From NCBI GenBank assembly GCA_000004985.1, contig GG739429.1: a stretch of 1,406 nt of DNA. One strand, 5' to 3'. The first letter of the stretch is position 1; every line of letters begins with the position of its first letter. Shown here in pieces: positions 1 to 1,406 of this stretch. The position numbers and the translations under genes were made by a program. The notes beneath the pieces are model-generated. The model had not been told where the DNA came from. It made no database searches and saw only the letters and a list, made by a program, of their open reading frames with translations. This DNA comes from Naegleria gruberi. Lineage: Eukaryota.

Positions 1-32
1 TTGTAAAACTGTAAATGTAATGAAAATAGTTT
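1..32. repeat. Left-edge copy of the array terminus. It is a direct repeat of 1006-1036 with a 5-bp indel, probably the end of a second GTAAA-type array lying upstream of the window.
   Basis: Bases 20-32 (ATGAAAATAGTTT) are an exact 13-mer match to 1024-1036. The preceding 11-19 (GTAAATGTAA) matches 1006-1020 (GTAAATAAATGTAAA), with an extra AGTCA in the right copy: TAAATGTAA[AGTCA]TGAAAATAGTTT. Bases 3-19 also show GTAAA periodicity (GTAAAAC TGTAAAT GTAA). An exact 13-mer plus flank is unlikely by chance in 1.4 kb, even in AT-rich DNA (rough expectation ~0.1). Confidence 0.55.
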
Positions 33-188
33 CGGATAAATGAAATTCTCAAGTTAATGGAAAGTTCATTGTTTTCTAAAAGGTTACGCCCACAATTAAT
101 ACAGAGGAAGATACGCGGTGTTAAAATGAGAGGGTGGTAAAAACCTCCCAGCGATGGCTGTGCAAAAAAACTCGGCTGATAATTAATA

Positions 189-219
189 CCTGCAGTATTT
201 TAAAAATAAATACTGCAGG
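189..219. other. Perfect palindrome / stem-loop: a 12-bp stem (CCTGCAGTATTT / AAATACTGCAGG) around a 7-nt loop (TAAAAAT). It could be a bidirectional or minus-strand intrinsic terminator, or a protein-binding operator.
   Basis: 189-200 is the exact reverse complement of 208-219, with 5 of 12 G·C pairs. Each arm contains CTGCAG. A chance 12/12 inverted repeat with a short loop in this window is improbable (rough expectation <0.01). The plus-strand 3' flank (CACCTATTATTCC) is not U-rich at once. The minus-strand 3' flank (UAUUAAUUAUC, then a U7 run at 164-170) is moderately U-rich. A terminator role is therefore plausible but not canonical. Confidence 0.4.
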
Positions 220-345
220 CACCTATTATTCCATGCCGGAAGATTATGTATTATTATGTATCAAATGATTATTATTTAATACAAATTGTTTGCTTCATTA
301 TGATTAAACATTAAACTAGGTTTTATTAATAATAAATACTGTTAA

Positions 346-379
346 TTTATTCAACAAATAGTAATATATATAAATAAAC
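346..379 (+). promoter_or_regulatory. Possible sigma-A-like promoter or TATA element (TATATATAAAT) upstream of the 400-660 unit.
   Basis: TATAAA at 369-374 matches TATAAT 5/6 as a -10 element. The -35 candidates 17 bp upstream (TTTATT 346-351, or TCAACA 351-356 with a 12-bp spacer) are poor. In AT-rich DNA such hexamers are frequent, so this is weak. TATATAAA is also a perfect eukaryotic TATA box. Confidence 0.15.
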
Positions 380-413
380 GTTAATATTTCAATAATGTCT
401 AATTCTGAGCGAA

Positions 414-599
414 GTGAAGAATGGACTTGTTTTCATTGTAAACTTAATATTTTTCCATGCTCAAAAAATTATCACAATGGCCCCAACACCAACTACACCA
501 AAGAACAACAAGAAAACGAAAGACCTTAGCTCACCTTCTGCAGGTAGCTCCCACCCAATTAGTCCCACCCTTATTCAACCTTTTTTACGCTCTCAATGA
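414..599 (+). CDS. Doubtful 61-aa ORF with a GTG start. The N-terminal part is hydrophobic (GLVFIVNLIFF) and the rest is Pro/Thr/Ser/Lys-rich.
   Basis: It is listed in the ORF track, but the start codon is GTG and the upstream sequence (ctgagcgaaGTG) gives only a weak Shine-Dalgarno match. Codon third positions are C-rich (ccc, acc, tcc, cac), unlike the A/T-ending usage of the convincing minus-strand CDS. The internal ATG at 477 (acaATGg) gives only 40 aa. It is more likely a non-coding C/A-rich region than a gene. It is kept as a low-confidence alternative, possibly a small membrane peptide of type-I-toxin-like size. Confidence 0.15.
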   Translation: MKNGLVFIVNLIFFHAQKIITMAPTPTTPKNNKKTKDLSSPSAGSSHPISPTLIQPFLRSQ

Positions 600-631
600 T
601 TCTTGGTAAGTGTTCGTTGAAGTGAGGTTTC

Positions 632-660
632 AGATATCATCGAATGATATCTTTTTTATT
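632..660 (+). terminator. Candidate Rho-independent terminator: a 9-bp stem (AGATATCAT / ATGATATCT), a 3-nt loop (CGA), then TTTTTTATTTT.
   Basis: 632-640 is the reverse complement of 644-652. It is followed immediately by T6-A-T4 (653-663). The stem is AT-rich (2 G·C pairs), so the predicted stability is modest. It lies ~35 bp after the stop of the 414-599 ORF and the C/A-rich island. The minus-strand flank is not U-rich, so any activity is plus-strand specific. Confidence 0.4.
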
Positions 661-764
661 TTAATTTCAATTTAGTTTATGCCTCCTACTCGCATCTCCT
701 AATTTTTTTCTTATCTTTACTAATACTATTGATAAGTTTTTTTATAAGAGCCATATTTATTAAT

Positions 765-846
765 CTCGGGACCTGCTAATAAAGATTTATATCCATTAAA
801 GCAGGTCTCAAGGCTGAATCACCTTAAAGGTGAAACAGTCCCTGAG
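765..846. other. Nested three-stem structured element (candidate RNA structure or recombination/binding site).
   Basis: Outer stem CTCGGGAC (765-772) pairs with GTCCCtGAG (838-846), 8 bp with one bulged T at 843. Inner hairpin A is GACCTGCT (770-777) / AGCAGGTC (800-807), extendable by G·U and G-C to 768/809, with a 22-nt AT-rich loop. This stem shares bases 770-772 with the outer stem, so the two are alternative or partly exclusive pairings. Inner hairpin B is TCACC (819-823) / GGTGA (829-833) with loop TTAAA. The element is a relatively GC-rich ~80-bp patch inside very AT-rich DNA. Confidence 0.3.
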
Positions 847-955
847 CTTTAATACCCATTAGTATAATTACTTGTTCTCAATCTTGTTTTTATTAATTTG
901 CAATGTAACAACGTAAATAAACTTAAAAAGACATTACTATTTGTAATTATTTGAT

Positions 956-1020
956 ATAAATAAACGTAAATAAATGTAAATAAACGTAAATAAATGTAAA
1001 TAAATGTAAATAAATGTAAA
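956..1020. repeat. Tandem array of ~6.5 copies of a 10-bp unit GTAAATAAA(C/T), with a 20-bp higher-order unit in the first four copies.
   Basis: Read directly: 956-965 aTAAATAAAC, 966-975 GTAAATAAAT, 976-985 GTAAATAAAC, 986-995 GTAAATAAAT, 996-1005 GTAAATAAAT, 1006-1015 GTAAATAAAT, 1016-1020 GTAAA(g), then it degenerates. Isolated single copies of the same 10-mer occur at 913-922 (GTAAATAAAC) and 370-379 (aTAAATAAAC followed by G). The array ends 14 bp before the CDS stop codon. The 10-bp period equals one helical turn, so phased A3 tracts are expected to give intrinsic curvature. Confidence 0.9.
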
Positions 1021-1034
1021 GTCATGAAAATAGT

Positions 1035-1406
1035 TTATTTTTCTTCTGCAAAAAGCTTTTTCAATTCTTCTTTGATAGCAGCGTGTTCTATTTTATCTTG
1101 TATTTCTAGTTTCTCTCGTCTTTTAGTGATATAGGAAGATACTTCAATAGATAATGCCTCTATTTCACCGAATTGATTTTCTAACAATTCCATCTTTTTC
1201 TTATTTTCTGTAATAATCTTTTGATAAAATTGCATACAATACTCATAAAAACCTTCTTCTAGCTCAACTTTTCTTTTTAAAGCATCTCTTTCTTCTCTAT
1301 CTGAAAGAATATCTGTTAATTCTTGTAAAAGTAATGAAGTTTCTGACATAGTATAATCGTTTTGTTCATTATCTGTCTTGATAGCTTTAACAGCTTTCTT
1401 TGATAA
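1035..1406 (-). CDS. Hypothetical protein, C-terminal part, K/E-rich and probably coiled-coil. 5' end lies outside the window (the ORF track lists only 1035..1349 from the first in-window Met).
   Basis: The track shows a 104-aa minus-strand ORF 1035..1349 with TAA stop (complement of 1035-1037). I translated the complement of 1350-1406 in the same frame (…LSKKAVKAIKTDNEQNDYT-MSETS…). It has no stop codon up to base 1406, so the frame is open to the window edge for at least 123 codons. No Shine-Dalgarno-like purine run precedes the ATG at 1349 (upstream minus-strand sequence aaaacgattatactATG). It is therefore more likely an internal Met than the true start. Codon usage is A/T-ending (AGA for Arg, TTA for Leu, CAA for Gln, GAA>>GAG), consistent with the local ~30% GC. 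Heptad-like spacing of hydrophobics in a charged background (ELLENQFGEIEALSIEV…KLEIQDKIEHAAIKEELKKLFAEEK). I recognise no family. Confidence 0.7.
   Translation of the reverse strand, partial: LSKKAVKAIKTDNEQNDYTMSETSLLLQELTDILSDREERDALKRKVELEEGFYEYCMQFYQKIITENKKKMELLENQFGEIEALSIEVSSYITKRREKLEIQDKIEHAAIKEELKKLFAEEK

What the first reader, a model, noticed from the sequence alone, without database searches (positions are those of the whole stretch)
956..1036. 10-bp tandem repeat array, phased at the helical repeat, abutting the 3' end of the only gene
Six and a half head-to-tail copies of GTAAATAAA(C/T), with a C,T,C,T,T,T pattern that reveals a 20-bp higher-order unit, sit 14 bp downstream of the CDS stop. 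Degenerate single copies of the same 10-mer recur at 370-379 and 913-922. Exact 10-bp periodicity over 65 bp is typical of iteron-like protein-binding arrays. The 10-bp AT-rich repeats next to theta-replicon origins are one example. The lactococcal pCI305-type origins, which combine 10-bp repeats with 22-bp iterons, are an established example of that class. It also fits intrinsically curved DNA or a VNTR-type variable minisatellite. I cannot tell which from this window. It is the clearest non-genic signal here.
Basis: partly seen in the sequence, partly recalled or inferred. Interest (0 to 1): 0.55.

Follow-up and report, generated by a model that had tools for sequence, protein, structure and literature searches.

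The report
AT-rich minisatellite beside a Naegleria gene
The 10-bp repeat is real, but it lies in nuclear DNA of the amoeba Naegleria gruberi, not on a bacterial plasmid, so it is an ordinary AT-rich minisatellite whose unit happens to spell the organism's polyadenylation signal, at the spot where the neighbouring gene's mRNA is predicted to end.

Summary
Positions 956-1021 carry 6.5 head-to-tail copies of (A/G)TAAATAAA(C/T), far beyond chance.

The lead interpretation, an iteron or plasmid origin, does not hold. The window is a 1,406-bp unplaced scaffold of the eukaryote Naegleria gruberi NEG-M. Its only gene is NAEGRDRAFT_77061, an orphan with no Rep-like domain and no homologue outside this species. 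The window has no 22-bp iterons and no plasmid or phage match. The same 10-mer array occurs in 22 unrelated bacterial and metagenomic contigs with no shared flanks, so it is a recurrent simple-sequence expansion.

N. gruberi uses AAUAAA with upstream UGUA and downstream U-rich elements. On the + strand the unit reads UGUA+AAUAAA. On the gene's strand it reads AUUUAUUUAC, which is U-rich and contains UUAUUU. The gene's stop codon sits inside its own AAUAAA, a "dual-use stop". That predicts cleavage about 20 nt downstream, at the proximal edge of the array.

Most likely this is a slippage-born minisatellite that acts, if at all, in 3'-end formation or termination on both strands. Predicted curvature is modest. 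Copy-number variation could not be tested. Interest is low.

The parts
956..1021 (.). 10-bp tandem array with 6 full units plus a partial one. The + strand reads (A/G)TAAATAAA(C/T). The - strand reads (A/G)TTTATTTA(C/T).
   Evidence: TRF; sequence; pattern statistics.
959..1014 (+). Six AAUAAA hexamers at 10-nt spacing (959, 969, 979, 989, 999, 1009). Three are preceded directly by UGUA (TGTAAATAAA at 975, 995, 1005).
   Evidence: 17 AATAAA in the window vs 6.6 expected; 3 TGTAAATAAA vs 0.04 expected. Signal definition from PMC11529991.
1035..1406 (-). C-terminal 123 codons plus stop of NAEGRDRAFT_77061. It is annotated as 104 aa from an internal Met at 1349, but the frame is open to the scaffold end. 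The same sequence is the C-terminus of the 203-aa NAEGRDRAFT_52432.
   Evidence: Codon position 1 is G-rich (33% vs 7-12% at the other positions).
1034..1039 (-). AAUAAA hexamer overlapping the TAA stop codon (1037-1035): a 'dual-use stop', the predicted poly(A) signal of the gene.
   Evidence: Dual-use stops occur in 11-13% of N. gruberi genes, with a median 3'UTR of 22 nt (PMC11529991).
1013..1024 (-). Predicted cleavage/poly(A) zone of the gene (inferred, not observed). A CA dinucleotide lies at 1016-1015, 19-20 nt past the stop codon, at the proximal edge of the array.
   Evidence: Inference from the 15-20 nt signal-to-cleavage distance and the 22-nt median 3'UTR, applied to the sequence.
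956..1014 (-). U-rich stretch (63% U) downstream of the predicted cleavage site. The 60 nt downstream of the CA at 1016-1015 (1015-956) hold six UUAUUU hexamers. Candidate downstream element.
   Evidence: UUAUUU is one of the downstream U-rich hexamers scored in PMC11529991.
1035..1074 (+). U-rich stretch (55% U, with UUAUUU and UUUCUU) downstream of the last + strand AAUAAA. It is the antisense of the gene's last codons.
913..922 (+). Exact solo copy of the unit, GTAAATAAAC, 34 nt left of the array.
370..379 (+). Solo copy with one mismatch, ATAAATAAAC.
2..33 (+). Second, decayed copy of 'array end plus following 13 nt': TGTAAAACTGTAAATGTAATGAAAATAGTTT, against 1004-1036.
   Evidence: Local alignment score 38 vs 18 +/- 2.9 (maximum 30) in 300 shuffles. 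The exact 13-mer alone is not significant.

Best explanation
The array is a short AT-rich minisatellite in non-coding nuclear DNA of Naegleria gruberi strain NEG-M. It was most likely produced by replication slippage or unequal exchange of a pre-existing GTAAATAAAY motif, of which solo copies remain at 913 and 370. It is not a replication or partition element.

Its unit spells the N. gruberi 3'-end-processing code. That is how it most likely acts, if it acts at all.

(a) On the gene's (minus) strand, the stop codon lies inside an AAUAAA hexamer. Cleavage is therefore predicted about 20 nt later, at the proximal edge of the array. The rest of the array, (AUUUAUUUAC)n, would then be the U-rich downstream region of that poly(A) site and would be largely absent from the mature mRNA.

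(b) On the + strand the array presents six AAUAAA hexamers, three with an abutting UGUA, followed by a U-rich stretch. Any transcript entering from the left would be cleaved before running antisense into the gene.

What is shown: the repeat, the organism, the absence of a Rep gene or iterons, and the motif content on both strands. What is inferred: the cleavage position, any use of the + strand signals, and whether any of this is selected rather than incidental.
For: - Repeat.
- Organism and scaffold: the only homologue in 5.8 billion proteins is N. gruberi. Cluster member P0003 (NAEGRDRAFT_77061, 104 aa) sits on a contig of exactly 1,406 bp and equals the window ORF. Sister copies lie on 312-kb and 696-kb scaffolds, so the locus is chromosomal.
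- No coding signal in 1-950: the concatenated stop-free frame segments of at least 20 aa on both strands matched nothing.
- Recurrent origin: at least 3 copies of the same unit occur in 3 bacterial MAG contigs and 19 metagenome contigs. Similarity is confined to the array and the gene contexts are heterogeneous.
- N. gruberi 3'-end rules (PMC11529991): AAUAAA is the top signal and lies 15-20 nt upstream of cleavage. UGUA is enriched upstream and U-rich sequence downstream. The median 3'UTR is 39 nt. Some 11-13% of stop codons overlap AAUAAA, with a median 3'UTR of 22 nt.
- Motifs in the window: AATAAA at 1039-1034 (minus) over the stop codon, and six in the array. TGTAAATAAA occurs three times. 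There are six UUAUUU on the minus strand of the array, which is 63% U.
- Only 2.4% of arrays built from permutations of the unit carry both AATAAA and TGTA.
- The array is unstructured as RNA, z about 0, as expected for a single-stranded U-rich element.
Against: - No transcript data were available, so the cleavage site and any + strand transcription are inferred.
- The same array occurs in bacteria, where it cannot be a poly(A) signal. The motif content may therefore be a by-product of AT-rich composition. The 2.4% figure is post hoc.
- No + strand gene is visible in the 950 nt to the left.
- No UGUA lies within about 60 nt upstream of the gene's own AAUAAA (sequence).
- According to PMC11529991, downstream U-rich bias in N. 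gruberi is weaker than in humans.
- The gene is an orphan with no homologue in 1.84 billion representatives, so its reality rests on ORF length and codon-position bias alone.
Confidence: 0.55

Rival explanations
1. A purely neutral simple-sequence expansion (VNTR-type minisatellite) with no role in transcript 3' ends or anything else. The poly(A)-like motif content is a coincidence of AT-rich composition.
For: The identical array arose independently in 22 unrelated contigs, including bacteria, in promoter-side, convergent and tandem contexts. The region is about 17% GC, like other parts of the window. No homologous locus elsewhere shows conservation.
Against: The array lies exactly at the predicted cleavage site of a gene with a dual-use AAUAAA/stop. 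In N. gruberi the AAUAAA hexamer is reported as the main determinant of poly(A) site recognition. Six copies would therefore be hard for the machinery to ignore if transcribed.
Confidence: 0.35
2. An AU-rich element. The array lies inside the gene's 3'UTR as (AUUUAUUUAC)n and destabilises or regulates the mRNA through ARE-binding proteins.
For: There are 10 AUUUA pentamers on the minus strand of the array. The next minus-strand AAUAAA after the stop-codon one is at 894-889. Using it would place the whole array in a 3'UTR of about 160 nt.
Against: The AAUAAA overlapping the stop predicts a 3'UTR of about 20 nt. N. gruberi 3'UTRs have a median of 39 nt, and 22 nt for dual-use stops. The class II nonamer UUAUUUAWW is not met, because a C follows UUAUUUA in every unit (sequence).
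Confidence: 0.06
3. A replication element: either a plasmid iteron array or, translated to a eukaryote, an ARS-like or DNA-unwinding element.
For: The repeats have a strict 10-bp period and are AT-rich. There are five perfect matches to the budding-yeast ARS consensus WTTTAYRTTTW on the minus strand, against 0.25 expected.
Against: The locus is a eukaryotic chromosomal one. There is no Rep gene, no 22-bp iterons and no plasmid or phage match. From general knowledge, sequence-specific reading of the ACS is a peculiarity of budding-yeast ORC. The only mapped Naegleria origin is on the rDNA circle (CERE), whose repeats are 35-2,135 bp at about 38% GC. The array is not the most AT-rich part of the window.
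Confidence: 0.02
4. A structural DNA element: intrinsically curved DNA, or a nucleosome-positioning or nucleosome-excluding sequence at a gene's 3' end.
For: The period of 10 bp is close to the helical repeat. Yeast bidirectional termination zones are nucleosome-depleted (bioRxiv 10.1101/2022.11.02.514956).
Against: Each unit has two A3 tracts about half a turn apart, not one phased A4-6 tract. The wedge model gives about 10 degrees per turn, against 28 for (A6N4)n. Of arrays built from shuffled units, 80% are at least as curved (parameters recalled from memory, so the result is rough).
Confidence: 0.04

Closest known systems
Eukaryotic AT-rich minisatellite / VNTR
   Same: Head-to-tail 10-bp units with interspersed variants (C/T), in non-coding nuclear DNA, with solo seed copies nearby. 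The same unit has expanded independently in many genomes.
   Different: It is short (6.5 units, 66 bp). Copy-number polymorphism between the three assembled copies, or between strains, could not be examined.
N. gruberi cleavage/polyadenylation site (UGUA - AAUAAA - U-rich; 'dual-use' stop codons), PMC11529991
   Same: The gene's stop codon lies inside AAUAAA. The array supplies UUAUUU-rich sequence just downstream. On the other strand each unit is AAUAAA, often with an abutting UGUA, and a U-rich stretch follows.
   Different: The signal is multiplied in tandem six times. No transcript ends were seen here. No UGUA lies upstream of the gene's own hexamer.
Bidirectional termination zones of S. 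cerevisiae (bioRxiv 10.1101/2022.11.02.514956)
   Same: A short AT-rich intergenic zone whose sequence could terminate transcription from both strands.
   Different: The yeast zones centre on UAUAUA and were defined from mapped 3' ends. Here bidirectionality is only read off the sequence.
Iterons and 10-bp AT-rich repeats of lactococcal pCI305-type theta replicons
   Same: Tandem AT-rich direct repeats with a period of 10 bp.
   Different: The host is a eukaryote, the locus is chromosomal, there is no repB-like gene and no 22-bp iterons, and there is no plasmid similarity.
Class II AU-rich elements
   Same: Overlapping AUUUA pentamers on the gene's strand.
   Different: The nonamer consensus is not met, and the array probably lies downstream of the cleavage site.

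Membership tests
Plasmid iteron origin (pCI305-type theta replicon) | Lies on a bacterial plasmid or replicon | tested here: not met
   The window is the 1,406-bp N. gruberi NEG-M scaffold carrying NAEGRDRAFT_77061. There is no blastn match in 72,556 plasmids or 50,697 phages.
Plasmid iteron origin (pCI305-type theta replicon) | Adjacent rep/initiator gene | tested here: not met
   The neighbouring gene has no Pfam family above threshold and no homologue outside N. gruberi. The stop-free frame segments of at least 20 aa in 1-950 matched nothing.
Plasmid iteron origin (pCI305-type theta replicon) | 22-bp iterons (about 3.5 copies) accompanying the 10-bp AT-rich repeats (feature recalled from general knowledge) | tested here: not met
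   TRF and the repeat finder report no array with a period near 22.
Plasmid iteron origin (pCI305-type theta replicon) | Binding by the cognate Rep protein | not testable with these tools
   This needs EMSA or footprinting, and no Rep candidate exists.
Eukaryotic minisatellite / VNTR | Head-to-tail repeats of a unit of about 10 bp or more, beyond chance | tested here: met
   Period 10, 6.4 copies, 94% matches. There are 8 matches against 1.18 expected.
Eukaryotic minisatellite / VNTR | Non-coding nuclear location | tested here: met
   The array lies between the stop codon at 1035 and about 950 nt with no coding signal.
Eukaryotic minisatellite / VNTR | Copy number varies between alleles or strains | not testable with these tools
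   DNA of the sister loci (NAEGRDRAFT_52432, NAEGRDRAFT_46908) is not in any accessible collection, and no relatives were found in metagenomes.
N. gruberi poly(A) site | AAUAAA hexamer | tested here: met
   Minus strand 1039-1034, over the stop codon. The + strand has six copies in the array.
N. gruberi poly(A) site | UGUA 20-50 nt upstream of cleavage | tested here: inconclusive
   On the + strand it is met (TGTA at 975, 995, 1005, 1015; and the sequence). On the minus strand it is not met: there is no TGTA in 1040-1100.
N. gruberi poly(A) site | U-rich sequence downstream | tested here: met
   Minus strand: 63% U with six UUAUUU. Plus strand: 55% U with UUAUUU and UUUCUU.
N. gruberi poly(A) site | Mapped transcript 3' ends at the site | not testable with these tools
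   The supplements of PMC11529991 are not held, and the gene identifiers appear in no searchable paper.
Class II AU-rich element | UUAUUUA(U/A)(U/A) nonamer within the mature 3'UTR | tested here: not met
   Every UUAUUUA is followed by C. Predicted cleavage leaves the array outside the mRNA (inference).
Budding-yeast ARS | 11/11 match to the ACS WTTTAYRTTTW | tested here: met
   There are 5 matches against 0.25 expected. This is a property of the repeat unit and not evidence of origin activity.
Budding-yeast ARS | ORC that reads the ACS; ARS activity | not testable with these tools
   From general knowledge, ACS-specific ORC is confined to budding yeasts. No Naegleria data were available.
A-tract curved DNA | A4-6 tracts phased once per helical turn, giving strong predicted curvature | tested here: not met
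   There are two A3 tracts per unit. The wedge model gives about 10 degrees per turn, against 28 for the A6 control (rough, parameters from memory).

The most novel reading that the evidence does not exclude
The array is a selected, compact bidirectional 3'-end module. Tandem UGUA-AAUAAA units terminate + strand (non-coding or read-through) transcription. Their antisense supplies the U-rich downstream element for a minus-strand gene whose stop codon doubles as its poly(A) signal. In this way each strand's hexamers serve as the other strand's auxiliary element, and copy number could tune termination efficiency.
Probability: 0.2. Interest if true: 0.35.

Novelty: new member of a known kind. Interest (0 to 1): 0.15.

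Why it matters
The direct importance is small. The result removes a false lead, a supposed plasmid origin, by showing that the window is eukaryotic.

It also shows how an AT-rich repeat that looks like an iteron array can simply be a multiplied poly(A) signal motif.

If the bidirectional 3'-end reading were confirmed, it would give a concrete locus for studying two things in a deep-branching eukaryote: how gene-dense protist genomes stop transcription between closely spaced units, and how 'dual-use' stop codons get their downstream elements.

The repeat is also a plausible reason why this 1.4-kb piece was left unmerged in the NEG-M assembly.

Tried and rejected
- blastn (distant mode) of the whole window against plasmids and phages found nothing.
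- Rfam at E<=1 gave only a meaningless miRNA hairpin hit at 180-228. No tRNA was found. The bacterial promoter and terminator scans are uninformative for a eukaryote.
- Pfam on the ORFs and on the full-length paralogue gave nothing above threshold.
- An exhaustive HMMER search with the 203-aa protein found only itself.
- A search for related loci in metagenomes with the protein found none.
- Exact look-ups of P0001, P0002 and P0003 to fetch the sister loci's DNA found nothing on record. The VNTR test therefore failed for lack of data.
- A concatenated query of the stop-free frame segments of at least 20 aa in 1-950 (both strands) matched no protein.
- Curvature was rejected: it is modest.
- The ARE reading was rejected on the predicted cleavage position and the missing nonamer.
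- The yeast ACS match was noted but rejected as evidence, because the ACS is AT-rich, degenerate and lineage-specific.
- The CERE (rDNA circle) origin was rejected because the gene's copies sit on 312-kb and 696-kb scaffolds and the CERE repeats are different.
- The 20-bp higher-order unit has too few variants to support it.
- The supplementary 3'UTR tables of PMC11529991 are not held. The N. gruberi genome paper is not held. The gene identifiers appear in no searchable paper.

Full report
**The observation**

The window holds a clean 10-bp tandem array. Tandem Repeats Finder gives 957-1020, period 10, 6.4 copies, 94% matches, score 114. Read directly, the units are ATAAATAAAC (956-965), GTAAATAAAT, GTAAATAAAC, then GTAAATAAAT three times (to 1015), and a partial GTAAAG (1016-1021). 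The pattern GTAAATAAAY with at most one mismatch occurs 8 times against 1.18 expected, and none of 200 dinucleotide-preserving shuffles reaches 8. The solo copies at 913-922 (exact) and 370-379 (one mismatch) are real.

The only long ORF is on the minus strand, with its stop codon at 1035-1037.

Three corrections are needed:
- Positions 1022-1036 of the stated interval are unique sequence, not repeat.
- The 20-bp higher-order unit rests on two C variants. By my count these fall two units apart, as a 20-bp unit requires, in 4 of 15 placements by chance.
- The gene is truncated. Its frame stays open to base 1406.

**Where the DNA comes from**

The 123-codon open frame has a single homologue among 5.8 billion proteins. 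It is a 203-aa 'predicted protein' of Naegleria gruberi at 99% identity.

The cluster has three members:
- NAEGRDRAFT_46908, on a 695,587-bp scaffold.
- NAEGRDRAFT_52432, on a 312,004-bp scaffold.
- NAEGRDRAFT_77061 (XP_002668029.1), 104 aa, on a contig of exactly 1,406 bp.

The last protein is identical to the window's ORF at 1035-1349, and the window is 1,406 bases long. The window is therefore an unplaced mini-scaffold of the N. gruberi NEG-M nuclear assembly. It duplicates the 3' part of a gene that also lies on two large chromosomal scaffolds. Its translation is identical to the C-terminus of NAEGRDRAFT_52432 and differs by one residue from NAEGRDRAFT_46908.

There is no similarity to any plasmid or phage record. 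This alone removes the bacterial theta-replicon reading.

**The neighbourhood**

The gene product has no Pfam family above threshold. An exhaustive HMMER search of 1.84 billion representatives returned only the protein itself. It is a species-restricted orphan, glutamate- and lysine-rich, and certainly not a Rep or partition protein. Its reality is supported by ORF length (203 codons at about 28% GC) and by a G-rich first codon position, 33% against 7-12% at the other positions.

The 950 nt to the left show no coding signal. No stop-free stretch exceeds 67 codons. A concatenated query of the stop-free frame segments of at least 20 aa, from both strands, matched nothing. Rfam and ARAGORN find nothing credible. 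TRF and the repeat finder find no 22-bp iterons.

**Is the array special to this locus?**

Scanning for three consecutive units (GTAAATAAAY)3 found the same array in 3 contigs of bacterial MAGs (Oscillospiraceae, Flavobacterium, Roseburia). It also found 19 metagenome contigs with GC from 16% to 47%, and none in viral contigs.

blastn of the window against all 22 loci gives matches only over window positions 913-1037, that is the array, its immediate surroundings and the solo copy. The wider flanks are never shared. Copy numbers are 3-7. The contexts are mixed: upstream of start codons, between divergent, convergent or tandem ORFs, and a few inside ORFs.

A pattern with 27 specified bases is not expected by chance in these collections. 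These are therefore independent expansions of the same AT-rich 10-mer. That is the signature of a recurrent simple-sequence repeat, not of a conserved protein-binding site.

**What it would do in Naegleria**

A direct-RNA study of protist 3' ends (PMC11529991) reports the following for N. gruberi:
- AAUAAA is the top poly(A) hexamer and the main determinant of site recognition. It lies 15-20 nt upstream of cleavage.
- UGUA is enriched upstream and U-rich sequence downstream.
- The median 3'UTR is only 39 nt.
- About 11-13% of stop codons overlap an AAUAAA ('dual-use' stops). Those 3'UTRs have a median of 22 nt.

In the window, the gene ends ...GAA AAA TAA A. Thus AAUAAA occupies 1039-1034 on the minus strand and contains the stop codon at 1037-1035. 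Applying the published distances puts cleavage at about 1024-1013. A CA dinucleotide lies at 1016-1015, which would give a 3'UTR of 20 nt. That is exactly the proximal edge of the array.

The remaining 59 nt of the array read (AUUUAUUUAC)n on this strand. They are 63% U. With base 1015 included, the 60 nt downstream of the CA hold six UUAUUU hexamers, one of the downstream U-rich hexamers scored in that paper. As RNA the stretch is unstructured, z about 0.

On the + strand the array reads as six AAUAAA hexamers. The window holds 17 AATAAA against 6.6 expected. Three of the six are directly preceded by UGUA: TGTAAATAAA occurs three times against 0.04 expected. A U-rich stretch follows at 1035-1074, 55% U, with UUAUUU and UUUCUU.

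Given the unit's base composition, only 2.4% of permuted-unit arrays would carry both AATAAA and TGTA. This figure is post hoc.

The simplest mechanistic reading has two parts. The array lies in the downstream region of the gene's poly(A) site and is mostly absent from the mature mRNA. It would also act as a strong cleavage and termination signal for any transcript coming from the left. AT-rich zones of about 120 bp that terminate both strands are documented in yeast (bioRxiv 10.1101/2022.11.02.514956). None of this was observed here. It is inference from sequence plus published rules, and the motif's presence in bacteria shows that it can arise with no such role.

**Alternatives examined**

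- Curvature. A Bolshoy-Trifonov wedge model (parameters recalled from memory, so the result is rough) gives about 10 degrees per helical turn for the array. The window mean is 7.8 +/- 3.7 and phased A6 tracts give about 28. Of arrays from shuffled units, 80% are at least as curved. Each unit has two A3 tracts roughly half a turn apart, which largely cancel.
- AU-rich element. Ten AUUUA pentamers lie on the gene's strand within the array. However, the class II nonamer is not met, because a C follows every UUAUUUA. The predicted cleavage also leaves the array outside the mRNA. This rival survives only if the next AAUAAA at 894-889 is used instead.
- Eukaryotic origin. Five perfect matches to the budding-yeast ACS occur on the minus strand against 0.25 expected. 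This follows from the repeat unit. ACS-specific ORC is, from general knowledge, a budding-yeast peculiarity.
- rDNA circle. The only mapped Naegleria origin is on the rDNA circle, whose repeats are 35-2,135 bp at about 38% GC. The gene's sister copies on 312-kb and 696-kb scaffolds exclude that element.
- AT content. The array is not the most AT-rich part of the window.

**What could not be done**

DNA for the two sister loci is not in any accessible collection. No related locus exists in the metagenome set.

It is a reasonable but unproven guess that a difference in this repeat, or in the neighbouring hairpins, is why a 1.4-kb piece with an identical coding sequence stayed unmerged in the assembly.

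The 3'UTR tables of PMC11529991 are not held, and the gene identifiers occur in no searchable paper.

**Verdict**

The repeat is real and non-random. The iteron or plasmid-origin interpretation is wrong, because this is Naegleria nuclear DNA with no replication gene.

The repeat is an ordinary AT-rich minisatellite. I am about 0.9 confident of that. One mildly interesting twist is that its unit is the organism's UGUA-AAUAAA signal and it sits at the predicted 3' end of a gene with a dual-use stop codon. I give about 0.3-0.4 that this matters functionally and about 0.2 that it is a selected bidirectional module.

Interest is low.

Noticed in passing
window 765-845: Two adjacent strong hairpins (GGGACCTGCT...AGCAGGTCTC and GGCTGAATCACCTT-A-AAGGTGAAACAGTCC). 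They fold far better than shuffles on both strands (z -5.9 and -5.6, 0 of 200 shuffles as good). There is no Rfam match. They could be a small structured RNA or a palindromic element.
   Followed up: partly
window 179-229: A long hairpin with a perfect 12-bp core (CCTGCAGTATTT / AAATACTGCAGG, 7-nt loop) that extends to about 16 pairs. 100-nt windows around it give z down to -6.0. The only Rfam hit is a sub-threshold miRNA model (22.8 bits against a gathering score of 65).
   Followed up: partly
window 2-33 vs 1004-1036: The extreme left end of the scaffold repeats the end of the array plus the 13 nt that follow it (exact ATGAAAATAGTTT). The alignment score is 38, against 18 +/- 2.9 and a maximum of 30 in shuffles. 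The 13-mer alone is not significant (at least one such repeat in 13% of shuffles). It may be a decayed second copy of the same 3'-end module, or the reason the scaffold ends there.
   Followed up: partly
window 1035-1406 (-): The annotated 104-aa gene model NAEGRDRAFT_77061 starts at an internal Met. The frame is open to the scaffold end and matches residues 81-203 of the 203-aa paralogues. Three near-identical copies exist in the assembly, as alleles or a recent duplication. The family has no homologue in 1.84 billion representative proteins.
   Followed up: yes
window 1-950: About 950 nt show no detectable coding potential. The stretch contains GC-richer patches at 100-200 (43% GC) and 450-600 (42-43% GC, strongly C-over-G on the + strand, GC skew -0.44). 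There is also a GGTAAGT 5'-splice-site-like motif at 605-611. Its nature is unknown.
   Followed up: partly
window 354-365 / 933-944: A perfect 12-nt inverted repeat (ACAAATAGTAAT / ATTACTATTTGT) lies 567 nt apart. Each arm is within 5-10 nt of a solo copy of the 10-mer (370-379 and 913-922). Two perfect 12-mer inverted pairs are seen in the window against 0.37 expected (10% of shuffles reach two), so the evidence is weak.
   Followed up: partly
window 623-656: A perfect 9-bp hairpin (AGATATCAT-CGA-ATGATATCT) is followed by TTTTTTATTTT. It looks like a bacterial terminator but is not energetically unusual (z 0.2), and the DNA is eukaryotic.
   Followed up: yes
window 243-261: A second, minimal 10-bp tandem duplication (ATTATGTATT x1.9, 100% identical) reported by TRF.
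   Followed up: no
L010 3981-4010 and L013 3523-3552: Two metagenome-collection contigs (JACCDO011401311.1 and JACCDJ011806753.1, about 30 kb, 24% GC) carry the same 10-mer array with identical flanks. It lies between a divergent 361-aa ORF and a 1,713-aa ORF. This is evidently one locus sampled twice in an unidentified AT-rich organism.
   Followed up: no
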